64,000 nucleotides of DNA from a virus, in the UHGV virus genome UHGV-0218015, one strand, 5' to 3'. The translations under genes were made by a program, and so were the position numbers. The notes below the pieces were generated by a model. That model had not been told where the DNA came from and did no database searches. It saw only the letters and a program-made list of their open reading frames with translations. Shown here piece by piece: positions 43,168 to 49,918 of this stretch. Position 1 is the stretch's first letter. Every line of letters begins with the position of its first letter.

Positions 43168-44013
43168 GTGATGGATAGCAAAAAAGTAAGTGTGGTCGTG
43201 GACGCTGAAGACGAACGTGCTGGCGGACCACTTCAAACGCTTTATTGGAATTATAAAGAATTGATCGGATGGAAGCCTTCGGATTACAAACTCGCCGTCG
43301 CCAAACATATTCTGTCTCCAGAATTTAAAACACGTTCAAAAGCAACGATGGACGATCGAATACAACGTATCTCCACGAAGCTGAGTTCAGGTAACATCCC
43401 TGCACTACCTGTCGATCTTACCTGGCGAGGTTTTACAGAAGGGTTGGTGATTACCGGAGTGGAAACACTGCGGATTTGTGTAACCACTTACCGAGGACAC
43501 TTCAAAACAAAAACCGTATCTGAAGTTACCACACGCGTGCGTGAAGATCTCGCTCGGGATTTGTTCGAAGATAACGACGAACGACCTAAGGAGTCTGCAA
43601 CGGCGCAACTGAACCGTTATTTCCAGAACTGTGGTGAGACCGCAAAGATGATGGTACATCCGTTATCTCGGTTAACTTGGACTATCTTCGCAAACATGAA
43701 AATGAATGCGGATTGGTGGTACCGTCTTTCCACAAACTTCGTTAACGATCCCGCTAACTGTGAGCAGACGCCGTCGAAACGAAATGATTTGCGGCACAAT
43801 ATGCAGCACAATCTAAGGTTAAAAAAGAAGTTTTCCTGGAAATGGTTTATGAGGGTACTCAAGGCAATTGATGTTCGTAGTTTCGAAATCCTTTTGACCT
43901 TAAGGCGTCAGAAAGACAATAAGATCTACGAAGTTCAGGTCACGGTAAACCTTGACGAATACCAAATTGGAGACCAGAATGAAAATCGACCAAATAACCA
44001 GTCAGATAAATAA
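43168..44013 (+). CDS. hypothetical protein (281 aa)
   Basis: Complete ORF. Confidence 0.5.
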   Translation: MMDSKKVSVVVDAEDERAGGPLQTLYWNYKELIGWKPSDYKLAVAKHILSPEFKTRSKATMDDRIQRISTKLSSGNIPALPVDLTWRGFTEGLVITGVETLRICVTTYRGHFKTKTVSEVTTRVREDLARDLFEDNDERPKESATAQLNRYFQNCGETAKMMVHPLSRLTWTIFANMKMNADWWYRLSTNFVNDPANCEQTPSKRNDLRHNMQHNLRLKKKFSWKWFMRVLKAIDVRSFEILLTLRRQKDNKIYEVQVTVNLDEYQIGDQNENRPNNQSDK

Positions 44014-45253
44014 AGGTCAGTCGGCAATCGATAATTCCGTTAATACGGCAAAGAGCGCCACAAACCGCGTACAAACAACAGTGGAAAATGCGGAGCGTGG
44101 TATTAAGAACACGGTCGATAGCGTCAGCCGACTATCAGACCGCGCTGGTGAAACTTTCAACAAACTCATTAGCGGCGGCAACGAGCTGACCAGCAAAATT
44201 GGTAACCTTTTTGGCGGTAGCGATACCGCCAGTGTTGGGGGAACTAAGACTGCGGGGAGTTCAGCCTCCGGGGTGTCGCCAGGACAAAAGGTTCCCGGTT
44301 TTGCATCTAATACCAAAGAAACGCTTCCTGTCCTCGACCCACAAAAGCGTGACGTTTCTGAACCCTTTAAGAAAAAGGATGAAGATGGCCTAAAAGCACT
44401 AGACTACCTAAGTCCAGGTGGGATGGGGAAGCTGTTAGGTAAAGGGTGGGATAGTATCGGCAGCTTAACCGACTCCGTTTTATCCGGTATCGGTACTGAC
44501 TTTAACTCGGTGAAAAAACGTCTCGAAGGGACGATGAACATTGCTGGGCAATTGGCTAAACTCCCCTCGGAAGTTAGTCAAGAAGTCAACGGGTTTATGT
44601 CCGAAGTCAACAGTATGCGTTATCAAATCACCTCGATCGTTGATGACGTACAACATACTTTCGACAGCTACAAAGACTTAGACGACTTCTTAGCCATCGA
44701 TAACCTGATTAACAGCTTTAAAGGCAGCGACAGTTTCTCCACGTTAGACATTAATACCTCTTCAGCACTGATTTATGGCCTATCTACCAAACTGAACAGT
44801 TATGGTTTACCGGCTAAAATCGAACCGATGCTTCAAGCGATTACCGACACACAAGCAAAAGAGGTACTGTACGGCGAGTTGATGATTCAGGCGGCAGCGA
44901 CAGGTAATCTGGATTCAACGGAATACTATCTGGATAAACTCCAACCAGGACAAGGAACCCAGATCGCAACCACCGTTATCCAAAACCTCATGGCTAACCT
45001 TCGGGTTGAACCTGGTGTCAGTTTCAAAACGTATGGTACTCGCCTATTAACGCTATTTAAAGGATTAGATGCAAAGTGGGACAAAGCGAAGAACATCACG
45101 CCGGAGATGACTGAACTTAAACTTTACACCTACGCGGGCGTAAATGCGATTCAGGCACTACTGACCACTGAGAAACGTAATTACGTGATTGCTGCAGGCA
45201 GTGTAAGTTACCAGTCTACCGATAAAATCGTGGAAGACTATTTTGCAATTTAA
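43979..45253 (+). CDS. hypothetical Gly/Ser-rich coiled-coil protein (about 424 aa), possibly virion-associated
   Basis: ATG at 43979 with GGAG RBS (track ORF begins at 43952); low-complexity Gly/Ser/Thr segments. Confidence 0.5.
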   Translation: MKIDQITSQINKGQSAIDNSVNTAKSATNRVQTTVENAERGIKNTVDSVSRLSDRAGETFNKLISGGNELTSKIGNLFGGSDTASVGGTKTAGSSASGVSPGQKVPGFASNTKETLPVLDPQKRDVSEPFKKKDEDGLKALDYLSPGGMGKLLGKGWDSIGSLTDSVLSGIGTDFNSVKKRLEGTMNIAGQLAKLPSEVSQEVNGFMSEVNSMRYQITSIVDDVQHTFDSYKDLDDFLAIDNLINSFKGSDSFSTLDINTSSALIYGLSTKLNSYGLPAKIEPMLQAITDTQAKEVLYGELMIQAAATGNLDSTEYYLDKLQPGQGTQIATTVIQNLMANLRVEPGVSFKTYGTRLLTLFKGLDAKWDKAKNITPEMTELKLYTYAGVNAIQALLTTEKRNYVIAAGSVSYQSTDKIVEDYFAI

Positions 45254-45263
45254 GAGGCCGGTT

Positions 45264-46085
45264 ATGACCGAACCACAATTACTGCGTTCCGTATTAAAGA
45301 AGATCAAAAGTCAGAGCGAAGACAATCAAGCATTGGCTTTAACGCTGGGTTATCAACCTGGCCGAAATAATCCTAATACATACGTTAACGCGTCAAACAT
45401 TGTGCTTACTCCTGATGAGCGCTTTGTTTATGTCCTATACCTTCGTCGTTTAGGCTACGTTTGTGCGTTACCCGAAAAACTCCCTTTTACCGACGGTATC
45501 AACCACCTTAACCTTTACTCTAACGGTCGTACTACCGTAGGGAAAATGATCAGTAACTTCTACGCGCAACCTAACGGTGCTAAATTCGACACAATTCACG
45601 GTCAGTTTTTAACGTTGGAAGGTTACTATCATTATTTAAGGATCGTAGACTATCTGTTCTACAAGGGCTACGGAATAAACGCGTTGGGTCGTTTGGAAAC
45701 TGAATATCCAGACATTCGTTTATTACGAACCCTGACTGGGGCTGAATGTATACAACACGGTCGGCGATTAAAGGCGAGTATCTACGGGGGCACGGATTAT
45801 CGACCTGGCGAGTTTAGCAATTACGCGAACGGTGCATTTCAAAACGCATTGCTGCGTAAGCTCCGACTCTTGAAGTTTGACGGGAGTTGCTTAGGTAATG
45901 TGTTATCGTACTGCCATTCGATGGGACTACCGTTCTTGCATTACTACGTTATGAACGGTCGGGTTATTACACCACCTCATTCAGAATGGCTTCCTAATCT
46001 GGTGGTTTCTATTGTAGAAAACATCGACTTTAACGACACAACGTTCGACATTACGAGCGTCAGTGAAAGTATGGGATTAATCTAA
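45264..46085 (+). CDS. hypothetical protein (about 273 aa)
   Basis: ATG at 45264 with AAGAGG RBS (track ORF begins at a TTG at 45243). Confidence 0.5.
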   Translation: MTEPQLLRSVLKKIKSQSEDNQALALTLGYQPGRNNPNTYVNASNIVLTPDERFVYVLYLRRLGYVCALPEKLPFTDGINHLNLYSNGRTTVGKMISNFYAQPNGAKFDTIHGQFLTLEGYYHYLRIVDYLFYKGYGINALGRLETEYPDIRLLRTLTGAECIQHGRRLKASIYGGTDYRPGEFSNYANGAFQNALLRKLRLLKFDGSCLGNVLSYCHSMGLPFLHYYVMNGRVITPPHSEWLPNLVVSIVENIDFNDTTFDITSVSESMGLI

Positions 46086-46744
46086 TGGGATTATTCGATA
46101 CCCTTGCGCAATTGGAAAAAGCGCAGGAAGAAGAGGTTATTCGCGTTGCAGGCGAATCCATTAAACGTGAAGTGGAAAAGGAATATTGCGTTTGGGTAAA
46201 ACCCACGCAAGCGGGATGGGATTGGCTACACGCACAGTCCACTAAGATGTTCATGGACATTCTCATGCCGGTAGAAGGTGGGCGTCGTCGTATCCGTATT
46301 AAAGAAGACGGTACAGCACAGCTAACGCTTAAGCGTAAATTCCTGGACGGAAAGGTTGAAGAGAATTCGGATATCGGTATTAGTTCTGCACTCTCTTTTT
46401 ACAAGGACGGTTATTTGGCTCACCTGGTGAAACGTATCCACTTAGAACCGGGCGAATTAGCCGATAAAGGCGCTAAGCATTGGGATATTGATATTTTCAC
46501 TATCACCACCGGACACCCTGCAATTGAAGTTTCGGCTGACTTTAACGATCTCCTCACCGAGATGCGTAGTAGTACCAGCGTCGGTGACTGGGTGAAAGTT
46601 GAACTGGAAGTCGAGCGGTACGAGATTGCGGATGTGCTGTCTGTAATTCCGTTTGAGTTTGACGGCCATATTCCTGCTACACCGAAAGACCCAGAAGACC
46701 AAGAATACCTTCGTGACTATTGGGATTCTGTTACTCGTGTTTAA
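46085..46744 (+). CDS. hypothetical protein, possible CYTH/triphosphate-tunnel-like fold
   Basis: Alternating charged beta-strand-like motifs REVEKEY, RIRIKEDGTAQLTLKRK and VKVELEVERYE resemble CYTH signatures (ExExK, RxR...LTxK, ExExE); the N-terminal match is imperfect. Confidence 0.3.
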   Translation: MGLFDTLAQLEKAQEEEVIRVAGESIKREVEKEYCVWVKPTQAGWDWLHAQSTKMFMDILMPVEGGRRRIRIKEDGTAQLTLKRKFLDGKVEENSDIGISSALSFYKDGYLAHLVKRIHLEPGELADKGAKHWDIDIFTITTGHPAIEVSADFNDLLTEMRSSTSVGDWVKVELEVERYEIADVLSVIPFEFDGHIPATPKDPEDQEYLRDYWDSVTRV

Positions 46745-46748
46745 TACT

Positions 46749-46780
46749 TGCCCTACTCCTTCATAGGAGTAGGGTATTTT
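46749..46780 (+). terminator. rho-independent terminator (CCCTACTCC hairpin family)
   Basis: GCCCTACTCCTTCATAGGAGTAGGG followed by TATTTTCATTTTT. Confidence 0.7.
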
Positions 46781-46806
46781 CATTTTTACCCTAAAGGAGA
46801 ATTATC

Positions 46807-47175
46807 ATGCAAGCTCAGTTTTTTAGTACACCCAAAGGTTTCGGTTTTAAATTCCCTGAATTTGTTTTACCAAAACAAGTTATTGAAGTACCCTTTCCCA
46901 GTTATGTGCGATTAGGACTACGCACCGTACTTGCCAACTTTTCGGGAAAGACTGTGGAAATTCGTGTGTGGGAAGGTTCGGGAAGTCCTGGTGGTGTTAT
47001 GTTTGTTGATTACAATTGGATTAAAAGAACAGGTTTTCCGCTTGTACGAATAGTTGAGGCTGCTCGTGGATTACCCTTCCACGCTCTACTGGGAGATATA
47101 ACGTTACCTGAAGCTGGCGATTATTCTTCTCCTGCTGATGACGAATACCAAATTCATCTTGTTTTGTTGAAATGA
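46807..47175 (+). CDS. hypothetical protein (122 aa)
   Basis: ORF with CTAAAGGAG RBS. Confidence 0.5.
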   Translation: MQAQFFSTPKGFGFKFPEFVLPKQVIEVPFPSYVRLGLRTVLANFSGKTVEIRVWEGSGSPGGVMFVDYNWIKRTGFPLVRIVEAARGLPFHALLGDITLPEAGDYSSPADDEYQIHLVLLK

Positions 47176-47235
47176 TTTTTACAGTTGGGAACAGACTTAT
47201 GTCTCCCAAGACTGCGTTTAAGCGGAGAAACAATT

Positions 47236-47700
47236 ATGCGTGGATATATTCTCGATCTTGCAATTTCTGTAGAAGAACTTGTGGAAAAACTCGGCGGTAC
47301 CGGTCATGGGCTTCATGGGAAGACCAAAAGCATAGCTCATCTTCTCGAACCAAAATACGAACGGAAACTCCACATGATTGCTTCCGTTCGCAACAAAGCC
47401 GCTCACAGGAGAATTCTTCCCGAACGCATAGACGTCTATGAACAAGCTGTGGAAGAAACGAGGCTCTATTTAGAAGAACTGGTTAGGGAAGAAGAGCGGA
47501 AACGTCGTTGTGAAGAGGAAATAAATCCCAGCTGTCTGGAACGCGAAGCGATGTGGAGAGAACGGGCAGACGAGGCCAAACGACGTAACGAAGAGAAAAG
47601 ATGGGACGATATGAGTGTAATAGAAAAGATAGGTTGGGGCGCCGGTATTGCAATCGTGGGAGCTGCGGTTGCGTACCTTAAAATAAAGTCTCGTGACTAA
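47236..47700 (+). CDS. HEPN-like (Rx4H) helical protein with C-terminal transmembrane anchor
   Basis: Motif IASVRNKAAHRR (R-x4-H) within a predicted all-helical domain; charged linker; C-terminal hydrophobic IGWGAGIAIVGAAVAYL; ATG at 47236 with GGAG RBS (track ORF begins at 47185). Confidence 0.3.
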   Translation: MRGYILDLAISVEELVEKLGGTGHGLHGKTKSIAHLLEPKYERKLHMIASVRNKAAHRRILPERIDVYEQAVEETRLYLEELVREEERKRRCEEEINPSCLEREAMWRERADEAKRRNEEKRWDDMSVIEKIGWGAGIAIVGAAVAYLKIKSRD

Positions 47701-47714
47701 ATCGGGTATCGGAA

Positions 47715-48260
47715 ATGAAACAAATACAGTTAACTGATCACGTTAATGCGTTTAAACACTTTCTGGATAACGCGGGTATAAAACCCGGCGAACAGACAGA
47801 CGCATGGACTGCACGTGTTTATGGAAGTATTGGCAAAGTCTGTGAATCCACGACATCACACGACGGGTTGTTTGTTGCTAAAGCGGTGGGTAACGCCTTG
47901 TGGGATATTGCTGCTCTAGTTTACGTGATGAATAACGGGGATTTACGTCCCCTTGAAAAATCACTACACCGACTACTAGCCATTAAGAAATGGAAAAACG
48001 AACATCCTGAGTCAATCGCGGTTACGTTGATGCCAGAAGCGGTACTTGCTATCAAAGCGGTACGAAGTTGTACCGCTCGCGCACAAATGGAGCGTCGTCT
48101 ACATCTCGCGACACTCTTTTATCAATTGGCCAGAATTGTAAAGATGAACGGCCTAATCTTCGACCGGGTTCTACAGAACGGACGTATAAGTTGGACAGAA
48201 GAACTAAGTAGTTCTCCGTTCTATACAAAACTAAAACTTAAAGACATTTTGAAGGATTAA
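47715..48260 (+). CDS. hypothetical protein (181 aa)
   Basis: Complete ORF; predicted helical. Confidence 0.5.
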   Translation: MKQIQLTDHVNAFKHFLDNAGIKPGEQTDAWTARVYGSIGKVCESTTSHDGLFVAKAVGNALWDIAALVYVMNNGDLRPLEKSLHRLLAIKKWKNEHPESIAVTLMPEAVLAIKAVRSCTARAQMERRLHLATLFYQLARIVKMNGLIFDRVLQNGRISWTEELSSSPFYTKLKLKDILKD

Positions 48261-48261
48261 C

Positions 48262-48570
48262 ATGGAAAACTATTCGGGTTGGGCAATTTCGCAGTGCATT
48301 GGCTATTCTTTACGTTCTTTAGTGCGTACACTTTATAACAAAAACTCAGGTGAAAGCATTACACCACAGTTACTGGGCAAATTGGAAGTTGAAGTTAACC
48401 ACAAATTAAAACAGTTACTCGACAGCCACGTAAGAACAATGCGTTGGGAGTTCTTGCTACGTGGTAAGAAGCCTTTAATTACTGTTGTAGCAGAAGGCAG
48501 TGAAATCGTACTGCAGTCCAACGCAGACCTGTTTGAAATTTTAACTGAACTCGAAAAGGACAAAATCTGA
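48262..48570 (+). CDS. hypothetical protein (102 aa)
   Basis: Complete ORF; starts 2 nt after the previous stop. Confidence 0.45.
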   Translation: MENYSGWAISQCIGYSLRSLVRTLYNKNSGESITPQLLGKLEVEVNHKLKQLLDSHVRTMRWEFLLRGKKPLITVVAEGSEIVLQSNADLFEILTELEKDKI

Positions 48571-48887
48571 TGACTGTGAACGACAATATAAAGAAAAAGA
48601 TTGACGAAATCATAAGCGTCAGTTTAGATAGGATCGAATTAATTCCCGAAACTAAGGAAATCAAATACTACGTTCCTGCAGACGAACTATTTCCAGGTCT
48701 TCTTAGAATCTCACCAAAAAAGGTTGAAGAGGCTAAACGGCAATTCGAAGTTCGTGGCCTTAAGGTTGAGATTGTTAACAAAAAACATTTCCATGTAACG
48801 TATAGCCAGGAAAACATTATTTTTAGTCCTGAGCAAGCGCAACGTAATTTAGACATTTTAACGAAACGTATGGAGAATAACAAATGA
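48570..48887 (+). CDS. hypothetical protein (105 aa)
   Basis: Complete ORF overlapping its neighbours at both ends. Confidence 0.45.
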
Positions 48888-49918
48888 AACAGTATTTAGC
48901 GTTAATGCAAGACATTCTAGATAACGGTGTTGTCAAGAAAGACCGTACAGGCGTAGGGACACTTTCTGTATTTGGTCGCCAACTACGTTTCGACCTAAAA
49001 GAAGGTTTCCCATTAGTTACTACGAAAAAGGTTCACCTGAAAAGTATCATTCATGAACTGCTGTGGTTCTTAAATGGTGACACTAACGTGAAGTACCTGC
49101 AAGAGAACGGGGTAAAAATTTGGAACGAATGGAGTGACGAGGAGGGGAACTTAGGACCAGTTTATGGTAAACAATGGCGTGAATGGCGCGACTGTAAAGT
49201 TGTGGAGTGTCATGACGTAAGACGTACACAACAACTAATGCAGCGGGGTTACAAGTATATTGGGAATATGAAGGAAGACGGTACGACGTATTTGGTCTAT
49301 GAAAAAGCACATGACCAGATCAGCAAAGTTATCCAGCAACTTCGTGAAGACCCTGACTCCCGTCGTATTATTGTTAGTGCCTGGAATGTAGGTGACCTGG
49401 ACGATATGGCACTTAACCCATGCCACAACTATTTCCAATTCTACACAACGGAAATGACGTTGCTTGAACGACTGGATTGGTACGAAGTAAACGAACCGGA
49501 AAAATTTGCGAGCGCACCGCTTATTAATCACGAAGATATTGATGATGAAGAGCGACTTCATGAAATTTTAGATCGTGAGGACATTCCACGCCGTAAGCTT
49601 TCATGTTTTTACATGATGCGGAGCAACGACGTCGCATTAGGAAAACCGTTCAACATCGCGTCATACGCTCTGTTAACTCATATGGTTGCCCAACAAGTGA
49701 ATATGGTTCCCGATGAGTTAGTTTATAGTGGAGTCGATGTGCATTTATATCTGAACCACCTCGATCAAATAAAACTCCAGCTGACTCGTGAGCCGTACCC
49801 GTTACCTAAATTGGTTATTAAACGTAAACCCGAATCTATCTTCGACTACAAATACGAGGACTTTGAAGTAGTCGGTTACCAATCTCACCCACACATCGCC
49901 ATGCCTGTTGCGGTGTAA
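48884..49918 (+). CDS. thyA: thymidylate synthase (ThyA family) with two insertions
   Basis: Near-collinear with E. coli ThyA as I recall it (MKQYL.LMQ..LD.G..K.DRTG.GTLS.FG...[27 protein letters not shown]; [23 protein letters not shown]; [11 protein letters not shown]; [15 protein letters not shown]), with extra segments of roughly 35 and 45 aa. Confidence 0.95.

What the first reader, a model, noticed from the sequence alone, without database searches (positions are those of the whole stretch)
46085..46744. Possible CYTH / triphosphate-tunnel enzyme
The 219-aa protein shows alternating charged motifs at positions expected for a CYTH fold (EVEK, RIRIK...LTLKRK, ELEVE). CYTH enzymes include nucleotide cyclases and triphosphatases, so a phage copy could act on signalling nucleotides or RNA 5' ends. 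The N-terminal ExExK match is imperfect.
Basis: inference. Interest (0 to 1): 0.4.

Follow-up and report, generated by a model that had tools for sequence, protein, structure and literature searches.

The report
Capsid-packaged triphosphate-tunnel enzyme of jumbo phage
This 219-residue jumbo-phage protein does have the triphosphate-tunnel (CYTH-like) enzyme fold with an apparently intact two-metal active site, and because its counterpart in Salmonella phage SPN3US is known to be trimmed by the head protease and stored in the capsid, the phage probably carries a triphosphate-cleaving enzyme inside its head, whose substrate is still unknown.

Summary

The protein is the ortholog (59% identity, no gaps) of SPN3US gp225. 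Published mass spectrometry shows gp225 is a low-abundance head protein cut by the prohead protease at ARE-24. Here the same site reads V-A-G-E24|S25. Residues 1-24 are poorly modelled (pLDDT below 50 for most), and E24/S25 are invariant.

Verdict: a divergent, probably active TTM phosphohydrolase that is made late, targeted to the prohead, and probably delivered with the genome. Substrate unknown. Moderately interesting; a new variant of a known kind.

The parts
46073..46076 (+). Shine-Dalgarno-like GGGA, 8 nt upstream of the ATG. The ATG (46085-46087) overlaps the TAA stop (46083-46085) of the upstream gp224-like ORF, which suggests translational coupling.
   Evidence: Read directly from the sequence; ORF table.
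46085..46744 (+). Complete coding sequence, 219 aa plus stop. It is the ortholog of SPN3US gp225 and a member of PHROG 7768.
   Evidence: PHROG E=9.3e-97, full length; 59% identity, no gaps.
46085..46156 (+). Residues 1-24: predicted N-terminal propeptide, or capsid-targeting segment, removed by the prohead protease.
   Evidence: pLDDT is below 50 for residues 2-5 and 10-24. The segment is poorly conserved except at the site itself. The SPN3US ortholog loses a 24-residue propeptide (PMC10052503).
46145..46159 (+). Predicted prohead-protease site V21-A22-G23-E24 | S25. It fits the A-x-E motif with V at P4 and S at P1'.
   Evidence: The motif and its P4/P1' preferences come from PMC10052503. It aligns without gaps to ARE-24 of gp225. 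E24 and S25 are invariant and A22 is at least 90% conserved in 37 sequences. An [ASG]-x-E lies within 16 residues upstream of the ExE[Y/F] motif in 65 of 68 family members.
46157..46741 (+). Residues 25-219: mature TTM/CYTH-fold domain. Strands at about 24-40, 54-63, 66-73, 78-86, 89-97, 111-120, 130-139, 166-176 and 192-197; helices at 42-49, 99-107, 123-128, 150-161, 184-187 and 203-216.
   Evidence: model; fold searches.
46169..46189 (+). Strand 1 motif E29-V-E31-K-E33-Y-C35. E31 and E33 are the predicted metal-site-2 glutamates (= YgiF E4/E6). C35 occupies the position of the canonical ExExK lysine.
   Evidence: Invariance. Register from hhalign. Roles of E4/E6 from PMC4641920.
46286..46297 (+). 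R68-R69-I-R71: basic tunnel residues. R69 aligns to YgiF R56 (proposed proton donor) and R71 to R58.
46325..46333 (+). T81-L-K83. K83 aligns to YgiF K69, which binds substrate and orients the first glutamate.
46358..46363 (+). E92-E93. E92 is the invariant acidic-patch residue and aligns to YgiF E83.
46433..46435 (+). R117, a nearly invariant basic residue on strand 6. It is a putative phosphate ligand.
   Evidence: The role is inferred.
46481..46492 (+). W133-D134-I-D136 on strand 7. W133 is invariant and D136 nearly invariant.
   Evidence: The role is inferred.
46595..46615 (+). K171-V-E173-L-E175-V-E177 on strand 8. E173 aligns to YgiF E160 (metal site 1, invariant in characterised TTMs) and E175 to E162 (metal site 2). 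K171 sits where YgiF has E158 and is the candidate replacement for the missing strand-1 lysine.
   Evidence: The K171 relocation is an inference from antiparallel strand register; it was not measured.
46749..46786 (+). Intrinsic terminator: 12-bp stem (6 G-C pairs), 4-nt loop, T-rich tail. It closes the late/structural transcription unit 5 nt after the stop codon.

Best explanation
The gene encodes a divergent triphosphate tunnel metalloenzyme, a phosphohydrolase packaged into the phage head. It is transcribed with virion genes and translationally coupled to the upstream ORF. A 24-residue N-terminal propeptide takes it into the prohead. The prohead protease removes that propeptide at V-A-G-E24|S25. 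The 195-residue mature enzyme is kept in the capsid at low copy and probably leaves with the DNA and the virion RNA polymerase at infection. The chemistry is most likely the two-metal mechanism described for YgiF and AtTTM3. A triphosphate-Mg/Mn complex binds in the tunnel against R69, R71, K83, R117 and K171, with E173 completing metal site 1. E31, E33 and E175 hold a second metal and a water molecule that attacks a terminal phosphate. I favour a small triphosphate-bearing substrate (inorganic tripolyphosphate, an NTP or dNTP, or a triphosphorylated nucleotide analogue or alarmone) met in the first minutes of infection. What is shown: the ORF, the fold, the conservation pattern, orthology to gp225, and conservation of the cleavage motif. 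What is shown only for the ortholog: head location and cleavage. What is inferred: catalytic activity, ejection, the substrate class, and the K171-for-K swap.
For: Fold:
- AlphaFold2 model pLDDT 87.7, pTM 0.81.
- Foldseek top PDB hits are the CYTH proteins 3sy3 and 2gfg.

Sequence signal:
- The family profile finds only 3sy3 (E=0.013) and 2gfg (E=0.1) in the PDB, aligned on the RxR / TxK / E motifs.
- hhalign against a YgiF profile scores 26.0, against 16.3 reversed and at most 17.5 shuffled.

Active site:
- Eight of the nine invariant columns are charged residues spaced i, i+2 on strands.
- In the hhalign register they map to YgiF E4, E6, R56, R58, K69, E83 and E160, and nearly invariant E175 maps to E162. 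The roles of E4, E6, R56, K69, E160 and E162 are established in PMC4641920.

Packaging:
- SPN3US gp225 is retained in tailless heads (PSM ratio 1.09) and cut at ARE-24 (PMC10052503).
- 59% identity with no gaps.
- E24/S25 invariant.
- The cleavage motif recurs in 65 of 68 members.
- The N-terminus is poorly modelled.

Operon:
- The upstream ORF 43952..45253 is 63% identical to the tail protein gp223.
- A terminator follows directly after the gene.

Against: - No Pfam, NCBIfam or PDB sequence hit at conventional significance.
- The hhalign probability is only about 8%.
- The canonical ExExK lysine is absent.
- I could not read the model coordinates, so tunnel closure, the inward orientation of the residues and the K171 position were not measured.
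- Head location and cleavage are shown only for a 59%-identical ortholog. The prohead protease gene is outside this window.
- Ejection of gp225 into the cell has never been shown.
- Nothing here discriminates between substrates.
- Gene neighbourhood is not conserved in distant members: the gene follows DNA polymerase B in Vibrio phage pVa-21, so context gives no functional partner.
Confidence: 0.5

Rival explanations
1. It is an RNA 5'-triphosphatase that works with the co-packaged virion RNA polymerase. It would remove the gamma-phosphate from the 5' ends of early phage transcripts (or of host RNAs). This could be the first step of a cap-like modification or a way to change RNA stability or recognition. 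Poxviruses, mimivirus and baculoviruses likewise carry a TTM triphosphatase alongside their own RNA polymerase.
Confidence: 0.18
2. It is a cytoplasmic nucleotide-pool enzyme. As a CYTH NTP/dNTP triphosphatase it would sanitise or reshape the nucleotide pool during replication, and the copies found in the head would be incidental.
For: Iyer et al. 2021 propose this role for the CYTH and MazG triphosphatases scattered across jumbo phages (PMC7824862). Thymidylate synthase lies about 2.1 kb downstream. In Vibrio phage pVa-21 the homolog directly follows DNA polymerase B.
Against: The ortholog carries a dedicated propeptide and a specific protease site, and it is retained in purified tailless heads in three replicates. 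The site is conserved family-wide. A terminator separates the gene from the nucleotide-metabolism genes, and it is co-oriented and coupled with virion genes.
Confidence: 0.1
3. It is a non-catalytic structural or assembly protein of the head or inner body. It would merely retain the TTM fold, as Mediator Med18/Med20 do, perhaps binding a polyanion such as DNA through the basic tunnel.
Against: Residues at seven of the eight aligned YgiF positions (six of which have characterised roles) are invariant, and E175 is nearly invariant, across sequences only 20-30% identical. Almost nothing else is invariant. That pattern is typical of purifying selection on an active site. Abundance is low, which is unlike a scaffold.
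Confidence: 0.1
4. It is a class IV (CyaB-type) nucleotide cyclase that makes cAMP or another cyclic nucleotide in the host on arrival.
Confidence: 0.04

Closest known systems
Salmonella phage SPN3US gp225 (SPN3US_0225, AEP84058.1); PHROG 7768
   Same: Full-length ortholog: 59% identity, 219 aa against 219 aa, no gaps. Same position after the gp223- and gp224-like genes and before the thymidylate synthase block. Same protease motif at residues 22-24. gp225 is experimentally a low-abundance head protein with a 24-residue propeptide removed by prohead protease gp245 (PMC10052503).
   Different: gp225 is described only as 'head, unknown function'. The TTM fold and active site are not mentioned in the papers I could search. 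The window phage is a different lineage: no megablast match to any GenBank phage. The P2 residue is G rather than R.
Stand-alone bacterial and archaeal CYTH proteins BH2851 (2gfg), GBAA_1210 (3sy3), PH1012 (2dc4), PH1819 (2een)
   Different: Only 10-17% identity. Those proteins pass Pfam CYTH and have ExExK; this family does neither. This family has an extra helix (150-161) between strands 7 and 8, a C-terminal helix, and an N-terminal propeptide. The biochemical function of these PDB entries is itself mostly unknown.
Tripolyphosphatases E. coli YgiF (5a61), Arabidopsis TTM3, Nitrosomonas NeuTTM (3typ)
   Different: K8 of YgiF corresponds to C35 here, and E158 of YgiF corresponds to invariant K171. 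There is no CHAD domain. These are cellular cytoplasmic enzymes, not virion components.
TTM-type RNA triphosphatases of viruses that encode their own RNA polymerase (vaccinia D1, mimivirus capping enzyme, baculovirus LEF-4) and yeast Cet1
   Different: Lower structural similarity than to CYTH enzymes. Those enzymes are fused to, or complexed with, guanylyltransferase and methyltransferase, and no such partner was seen here. RNA substrate not tested.
T4 internal proteins IPI-IPIII and other head proteins with a cleavable capsid-targeting sequence
   Same: A short N-terminal segment is removed by the prohead protease after a glutamate, and a low-copy protein is kept in the head and injected. This is established knowledge for T4 and is an analogy only.
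   Different: No sequence or fold relationship. The T4 internal proteins are not TTM enzymes. Targeting by residues 1-24 is inferred here, not shown.

Membership tests
Triphosphate tunnel metalloenzyme (TTM / CYTH-like) superfamily, fold level | Antiparallel beta-barrel 'tunnel' fold of about eight strands with flanking helices | tested here: met
Triphosphate tunnel metalloenzyme (TTM / CYTH-like) superfamily, fold level | Acidic patch: two Glu on strand 1 and Glu-x-Glu on the C-terminal strand, forming metal sites 1 and 2 | tested here: met
   E31, E33 and E173 are invariant and E175 is at least 90% conserved in 31 sequences. They align to YgiF E4, E6, E160 and E162. Roles from PMC4641920.
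Triphosphate tunnel metalloenzyme (TTM / CYTH-like) superfamily, fold level | Basic residues (Arg/Lys) on alternate positions of inner strands that bind the triphosphate | tested here: met
   R69, R71, K83 and K171 are invariant and R117 nearly invariant. R69 aligns to YgiF R56 and K83 to K69.
Triphosphate tunnel metalloenzyme (TTM / CYTH-like) superfamily, fold level | Divalent-metal-dependent reaction on a triphosphate-bearing substrate | not testable with these tools
   Needs an enzyme assay.
Pfam CYTH (PF01928) sequence family | Match to the family HMM at or above the gathering threshold | tested here: not met
   No hit for the window protein at E<=10. None for any of 37 close members or 31 diverse members. 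NCBIfam is also silent. For comparison, YgiF relatives all carry PF01928.
Pfam CYTH (PF01928) sequence family | N-terminal ExExK signature | tested here: not met
   E31-x-E33 is present, but the lysine position is C35 in close relatives and S/V/T/Q/C in distant ones.
Cet1-type RNA 5'-triphosphatases (Pfam mRNA_triPase) | HMM match, or closest structural similarity to Cet1 / D1 / LEF-4 | tested here: not met
Cet1-type RNA 5'-triphosphatases (Pfam mRNA_triPase) | Hydrolysis of the gamma-phosphate of 5'-triphosphate RNA | not testable with these tools
   Needs an assay with gamma-labelled pppRNA.
Class IV adenylyl cyclase (CyaB) | Match to CyaB family models; formation of cAMP | tested here: not met
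SPN3US gp225 group of protease-processed head proteins (PHROG 7768) | Full-length sequence homology to gp225 | tested here: met
   PHROG 7768 E=9.3e-97, positions 1-219 of 219. 59% identity with no gaps.
SPN3US gp225 group of protease-processed head proteins (PHROG 7768) | A-x-E prohead-protease site after a short N-terminal propeptide | tested here: met
   V21-A22-G23-E24|S25 aligns to V-A-R-E24|S of gp225. It fits the published logo of A at P3, E at P1, V at P4 and S at P1'. E24/S25 are invariant.
SPN3US gp225 group of protease-processed head proteins (PHROG 7768) | Physical presence in the head and cleavage in this phage | not testable with these tools
   Shown only for SPN3US. The prohead protease gene is not in this window.

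The most novel reading that the evidence does not exclude
The head-packaged TTM enzyme could be a bacteriophage counterpart of the TTM RNA triphosphatase that poxviruses, mimivirus and baculoviruses use alongside their own RNA polymerase. Ejected together with the virion RNA polymerase, it would remodel the 5'-triphosphate ends of the first phage transcripts, as the first step of a cap-like mark or to evade or exploit host 5'-end-dependent RNA decay or sensing. An equally novel alternative is that it destroys a triphosphorylated antiviral nucleotide before that nucleotide can poison the virion RNA polymerase. Examples would be chain-terminating ddhNTPs made by prokaryotic viperins, or an alarmone. 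Either would be a new kind of enzyme delivered from a phage capsid.
Probability: 0.15. Interest if true: 0.85.

Novelty: new variant of a known kind. Interest (0 to 1): 0.45.

Why it matters
SPN3US-type jumbo phages pack more than 50 different proteins into their heads. Apart from the virion RNA polymerase and the protease, almost none of these has an assigned activity. This result assigns a defined enzyme fold and a complete-looking active site to one of the nine known substrates of the prohead protease. A 'head protein of unknown function' becomes a testable enzyme. Clear experiments follow: assays with PPPi, NTPs and pppRNA; active-site mutants; amber mutants; and 5'-end mapping of early transcripts. 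If the enzyme is ejected, it is a catalytic payload acting before any phage gene is expressed. That is the window in which host defences and the early-infection compartment of nucleus-forming phages operate. For TTM enzymology, the family is a natural variant in which the signature ExExK lysine is lost and an invariant lysine appears on the neighbouring strand. The practical limit is that the substrate, and therefore the biology, is still unknown. Database pipelines already label a few homologs 'CYTH domain-containing'.

Tried and rejected
- **Sequence libraries.** Pfam, NCBIfam and phmmer/hmmsearch against PDB with the single protein and with the close-family profile gave no CYTH hit. Only the widened profile A2 reached 3sy3 (E=0.013) and 2gfg (E=0.1).
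- **hhalign.** A2 against the single YgiF sequence gave only a 33-column match at 2.6% probability. Global mode failed outright. Local mode against a 13-sequence YgiF profile gave a full-length, correctly ordered alignment that beats the reversed and shuffled controls. The probability is only about 8%, so I use it for residue register, not as proof of homology.
- **Model coordinates.** I looked for them to measure the tunnel and the K171/C35 geometry. They are not exposed in the sandbox, so this remains inference.
- **Gene-neighbourhood inference.** The gp223/gp224 context holds in SPN3US-like phages. It does not hold in Vibrio pVa-21 (after DNA polymerase B) or Ralstonia RP12, so there is no conserved partner.
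- **Upstream gp224-like ORF.** By eye it looked NADAR-like. There was no Pfam hit at E<=10 and no PDB hit, so I dropped the idea.
- **P0053 extension.** The 180-residue N-terminal extension of the 400-aa homolog P0053 has no Pfam match and no similarity to the gp224-like protein.
- **Exact-sequence contig look-up.** The window protein is not on record.
- **Supplement of Iyer et al. 2021.** It would list which jumbo-phage proteins they called CYTH, but it is not held.
- **Promoter scan.** Sigma-70-like sites are no more frequent than in shuffles, as expected for a phage that uses its own polymerases.
- **Antisense ORFs.** 46060..46266 and 46457..46783 have no support and are treated as spurious.

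Full report
**Observation.** It has an SD-like GGGA 8 nt upstream. Its ATG overlaps the stop codon of the upstream ORF (TAATG). A strong intrinsic terminator (12-bp stem, T-rich tail) follows at 46749-46776, 5 nt after the stop. The quoted motifs are at residues 29-32 (EVEK), 69-73 (RIRIK), 80-85 (LTLKRK) and 173-177 (ELEVE).

**Where the window comes from.**
- tblastn finds full-length homologs in 62 jumbo phages of Salmonella, Erwinia, Escherichia, Cronobacter and Proteus. The best is SPN3US at 59% identity.
- There is no megablast-level DNA match in 50,697 phage records.
- Proteins 95-99% identical sit on 222-226 kb contigs filed under Salmonella Enteritidis.
- Gene order matches SPN3US gp218-gp229. 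The window's homologs of gp218 and gp223 are 83% and 63% identical.
- The protein is therefore the ortholog of SPN3US gp225: 219 aa against 219 aa with no gaps, and PHROG 7768, unknown function, E=9e-97.

**Is it a CYTH/TTM protein?**

*Sequence methods alone say little.*
- Pfam gives no hit even at E<=10 for the protein, for 37 close relatives or for 31 diverse relatives.
- NCBIfam gives no hit.
- phmmer and the close-family profile find nothing meaningful in the PDB.

*The family is small.* An exhaustive profile search of 1.84 billion representative proteins finds only 28 at E<=0.001. The distant ones trace to other phiKZ-like jumbo phages (Vibrio pVa-21, Ralstonia RP12/RP31).

*Widening the profile helps.* Adding those distant members (alignment A2) brings up the CYTH proteins 3sy3 (E=0.013) and 2gfg (E=0.1) as the only two PDB matches. 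They align on the RxR / TxK / E block.

*Structure prediction is decisive.*
- The AlphaFold2 model has pLDDT 87.7 and pTM 0.81, with nine strands and flanking helices.
- Foldseek's best PDB hits are 3sy3 and 2gfg. They are followed by plant HpAC1, PH1819, the vaccinia capping enzyme, Mediator Med18 and human thiamine triphosphatase.
- Against viral models the best hit is the Ralstonia phage RP12 family member, which UniProt already calls 'CYTH domain-containing protein'. The Erwinia phage Wellington homolog and one JGI homolog carry the same name.

**Is the active site intact?**

Across 31 sequences that fall to about 20% identity, only nine columns are invariant: E31, E33, R69, R71, K83, E92, W133, K171 and E173. 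Y34, T81, R117, D136, L174, E175, V176 and P189 are nearly invariant. Eight of the nine invariant residues are charged and spaced i, i+2 on predicted strands. That spacing is the pattern of residues lining a TTM tunnel.

A local hhalign of A2 against a 13-sequence YgiF profile gives an ordered alignment covering residues 28-199. It scores 26.0, against 16.3 for the reversed profile and 8.0-17.5 for 30 column-shuffled controls. The probability is only about 8%, so I use it for register only. In that register:

| This protein | YgiF |
|---|---|
| E31 / E33 | E4 / E6 |
| C35 | K8 |
| R69 / R71 | R56 / R58 |
| T81 / K83 | T67 / K69 |
| E92 | E83 |
| K171 / E173 / E175 | E158 / E160 / E162 |

Martinez et al. 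2015 (PMC4641920) give the roles of the YgiF residues:
- E160 completes metal site 1 and is invariant in all characterised TTMs.
- E4, E6 and E162 hold metal 2 and a water molecule next to a terminal phosphate.
- R56 is essential and is the proposed proton donor.
- K69 binds substrate and orients E4.

Each of these has an invariant (E175: nearly invariant) counterpart here.

The one departure is the ExExK lysine. It is replaced by C35, while an invariant lysine (K171) sits where YgiF has E158. In TTMs strand 1 and the C-terminal acidic strand run antiparallel side by side. In Cet1, E305/E307 and E496 share one metal (quoted). Position 35 and position 171 should therefore be neighbours. I infer that the lysine has moved to the adjacent strand.

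**What the literature adds.**

Scheuch et al. 2023 (PMC10052503) analysed purified SPN3US virions and tailless heads by mass spectrometry. They report the following about gp225:
- It is a newly recognised substrate of the prohead protease gp245. It is cut at ARE-24 to give a 22.3 kDa 'head, low abundance' protein of unknown function.
- It is retained in tailless heads at a PSM ratio of 1.09, whereas gp223 disappears and is classed as tail.
- The protease motif is A-x-E, with V preferred at P4 and S at P1'.

The window protein reads V21-A22-G23-E24|S25 at the aligned position. E24 and S25 are invariant and A22 is at least 90% conserved among 37 relatives, while the rest of residues 1-23 varies. 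Most of residues 1-24 (2-5 and 10-24) have pLDDT below 50. An [ASG]-x-E lies within 16 residues upstream of the ExE[Y/F] strand in 65 of 68 family members, including the distant Vibrio- and Ralstonia-phage types. These sequences are related, so the count is not a probability.

I conclude that residues 1-24 are a propeptide, and plausibly a capsid-targeting sequence by analogy with T4 internal proteins. The mature enzyme would start at S25, just before strand 1.

[quoted passage not shown] It also notes that gp225 has no homolog in phiKZ or 201phi2-1.

None of the papers retrievable with 'CYTH' or 'triphosphate tunnel' plus phage terms connects gp225 with this fold. Iyer et al. 2021 only remark that CYTH triphosphatases are scattered across jumbo phages and might degrade unmodified NTPs.

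**Mechanism proposed.**
1. The gene is the last of a co-oriented block that includes a tail protein gene. It is translationally coupled to its upstream neighbour and closed by a terminator. It is therefore made with virion components.
2. The propeptide directs it into the prohead, and the protease trims it at E24.
3. The low-copy mature enzyme stays in the head and probably leaves with the DNA.
4. In the cell, or in the early infection compartment, it binds a triphosphate-metal complex in the tunnel and hydrolyses a terminal phosphoanhydride by the two-metal mechanism.

Steps 1-2 rest on sequence plus ortholog data. Step 3 (ejection) and step 4 (activity and substrate) are inference.

**Rivals.**
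- **RNA 5'-triphosphatase partnering the virion RNA polymerase.** The poxvirus analogy is attractive, and crude spectral counts per kDa resemble those of gp218. Against it: no capping partner was identified, similarity to Cet1-type enzymes is lower, and the family is absent from phiKZ.
- **Cytoplasmic nucleotide-pool sanitiser** (Iyer et al.). This fits the nearby thymidylate synthase and the DNA polymerase neighbour in pVa-21. It does not explain a conserved propeptide and retention in the head.
- **Catalytically dead structural protein.** This is possible because Med18/20 share the fold. It is disfavoured by the selective invariance of the catalytic set.
- **Class IV cyclase.** This is the least supported.

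**Comparison with known families.** The protein works like a TTM phosphohydrolase and belongs to the TTM superfamily at the fold and active-site level. It is not a member of Pfam CYTH by sequence, and it lacks the ExExK lysine. It is a member of the gp225/PHROG 7768 group of processed head proteins.

**Novelty and score.** I rate it a new variant of a known kind: a TTM enzyme with a relocated lysine, a cleavable N-terminal propeptide and a capsid address. The fold call itself is not new to automatic annotation. Linking it with the head proteomics gives a concrete, testable function for one of the many unknown jumbo-phage head proteins. Interest is moderate (0.45). It would be much higher if the RNA-end or antiviral-nucleotide scenario proved true.

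Noticed in passing
window 47715-48260 and 48262-48570 (+): Two adjacent ORFs (181 aa and 102 aa, separated by one stop codon and 1 nt) match the N-terminal and C-terminal parts of a single PHROG (10269) and of the single 289-aa SPN3US gp228. The gene is therefore split, or carries a nonsense or frameshift change, in this phage.
   Followed up: partly
window 48884-49918 (+): The thymidylate synthase is 344 aa and spans a 266-position Pfam profile end to end. This implies an insertion of about 80 residues relative to typical ThyA.
   Followed up: no
window 45243-47700 (whole window by implication): No megablast match in 50,697 GenBank phage records. Even so, 95-99% identical proteins occur on 222-226 kb contigs labelled Salmonella enterica serovar Enteritidis, and one cluster has 373 member sequences. 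This appears to be an undescribed jumbo phage of about 225 kb that is common in Salmonella sequencing data and is related to, but distinct from, SPN3US.
   Followed up: partly
L003 6001-7203 (metagenome contig SRR26596551_53272; protein P0053): This 400-aa family member carries an extra 180-residue N-terminal domain in front of the propeptide and AQE site. The extra domain has no Pfam match and no similarity to the gp224-like protein. If the protease cuts there too, the extra domain would be released in the prohead.
   Followed up: partly
window 46071-46079 and 46085-46093 (+): The 9-nt string ATGGGATTA occurs twice, 14 nt apart. The first copy encodes the last residues of the upstream ORF (...M-G-L-I-stop). 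The second encodes the first residues of the TTM gene (M-G-L...). It may be chance or a trace of how the overlapping junction arose.
   Followed up: no
window 45243-46085 (+): The upstream, translationally coupled gp224-like ORF (280 aa, PHROG 652, unknown function) looked NADAR-like to the eye (SNFY...EGYYHY). It has no Pfam hit at E<=10 and no PDB sequence hit. SPN3US gp224 does not appear among the virion proteins in the portion of the supplement I saw.
   Followed up: partly
L004 4995-5678 (Vibrio phage pVa-21) and L005 4920-5564 (Ralstonia phage RP12): Distant family members sit in quite different neighbourhoods. In pVa-21 the gene directly follows, and shares a junction base with, the B-family DNA polymerase gene. 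In RP12 it lies among small hypothetical genes downstream of a RuvC-like gene. The gp223/gp224 context is therefore specific to SPN3US-like phages.
   Followed up: partly
window 47185-47700 (+): This 171-aa ORF has a highly charged Glu/Arg-rich central region and a hydrophobic C-terminal segment (GWGAGIAIVGAAVAYL) that looks like a membrane anchor. The only family match is a weak DUF4145 hit (E=0.046), and there is no PHROG match.
   Followed up: no
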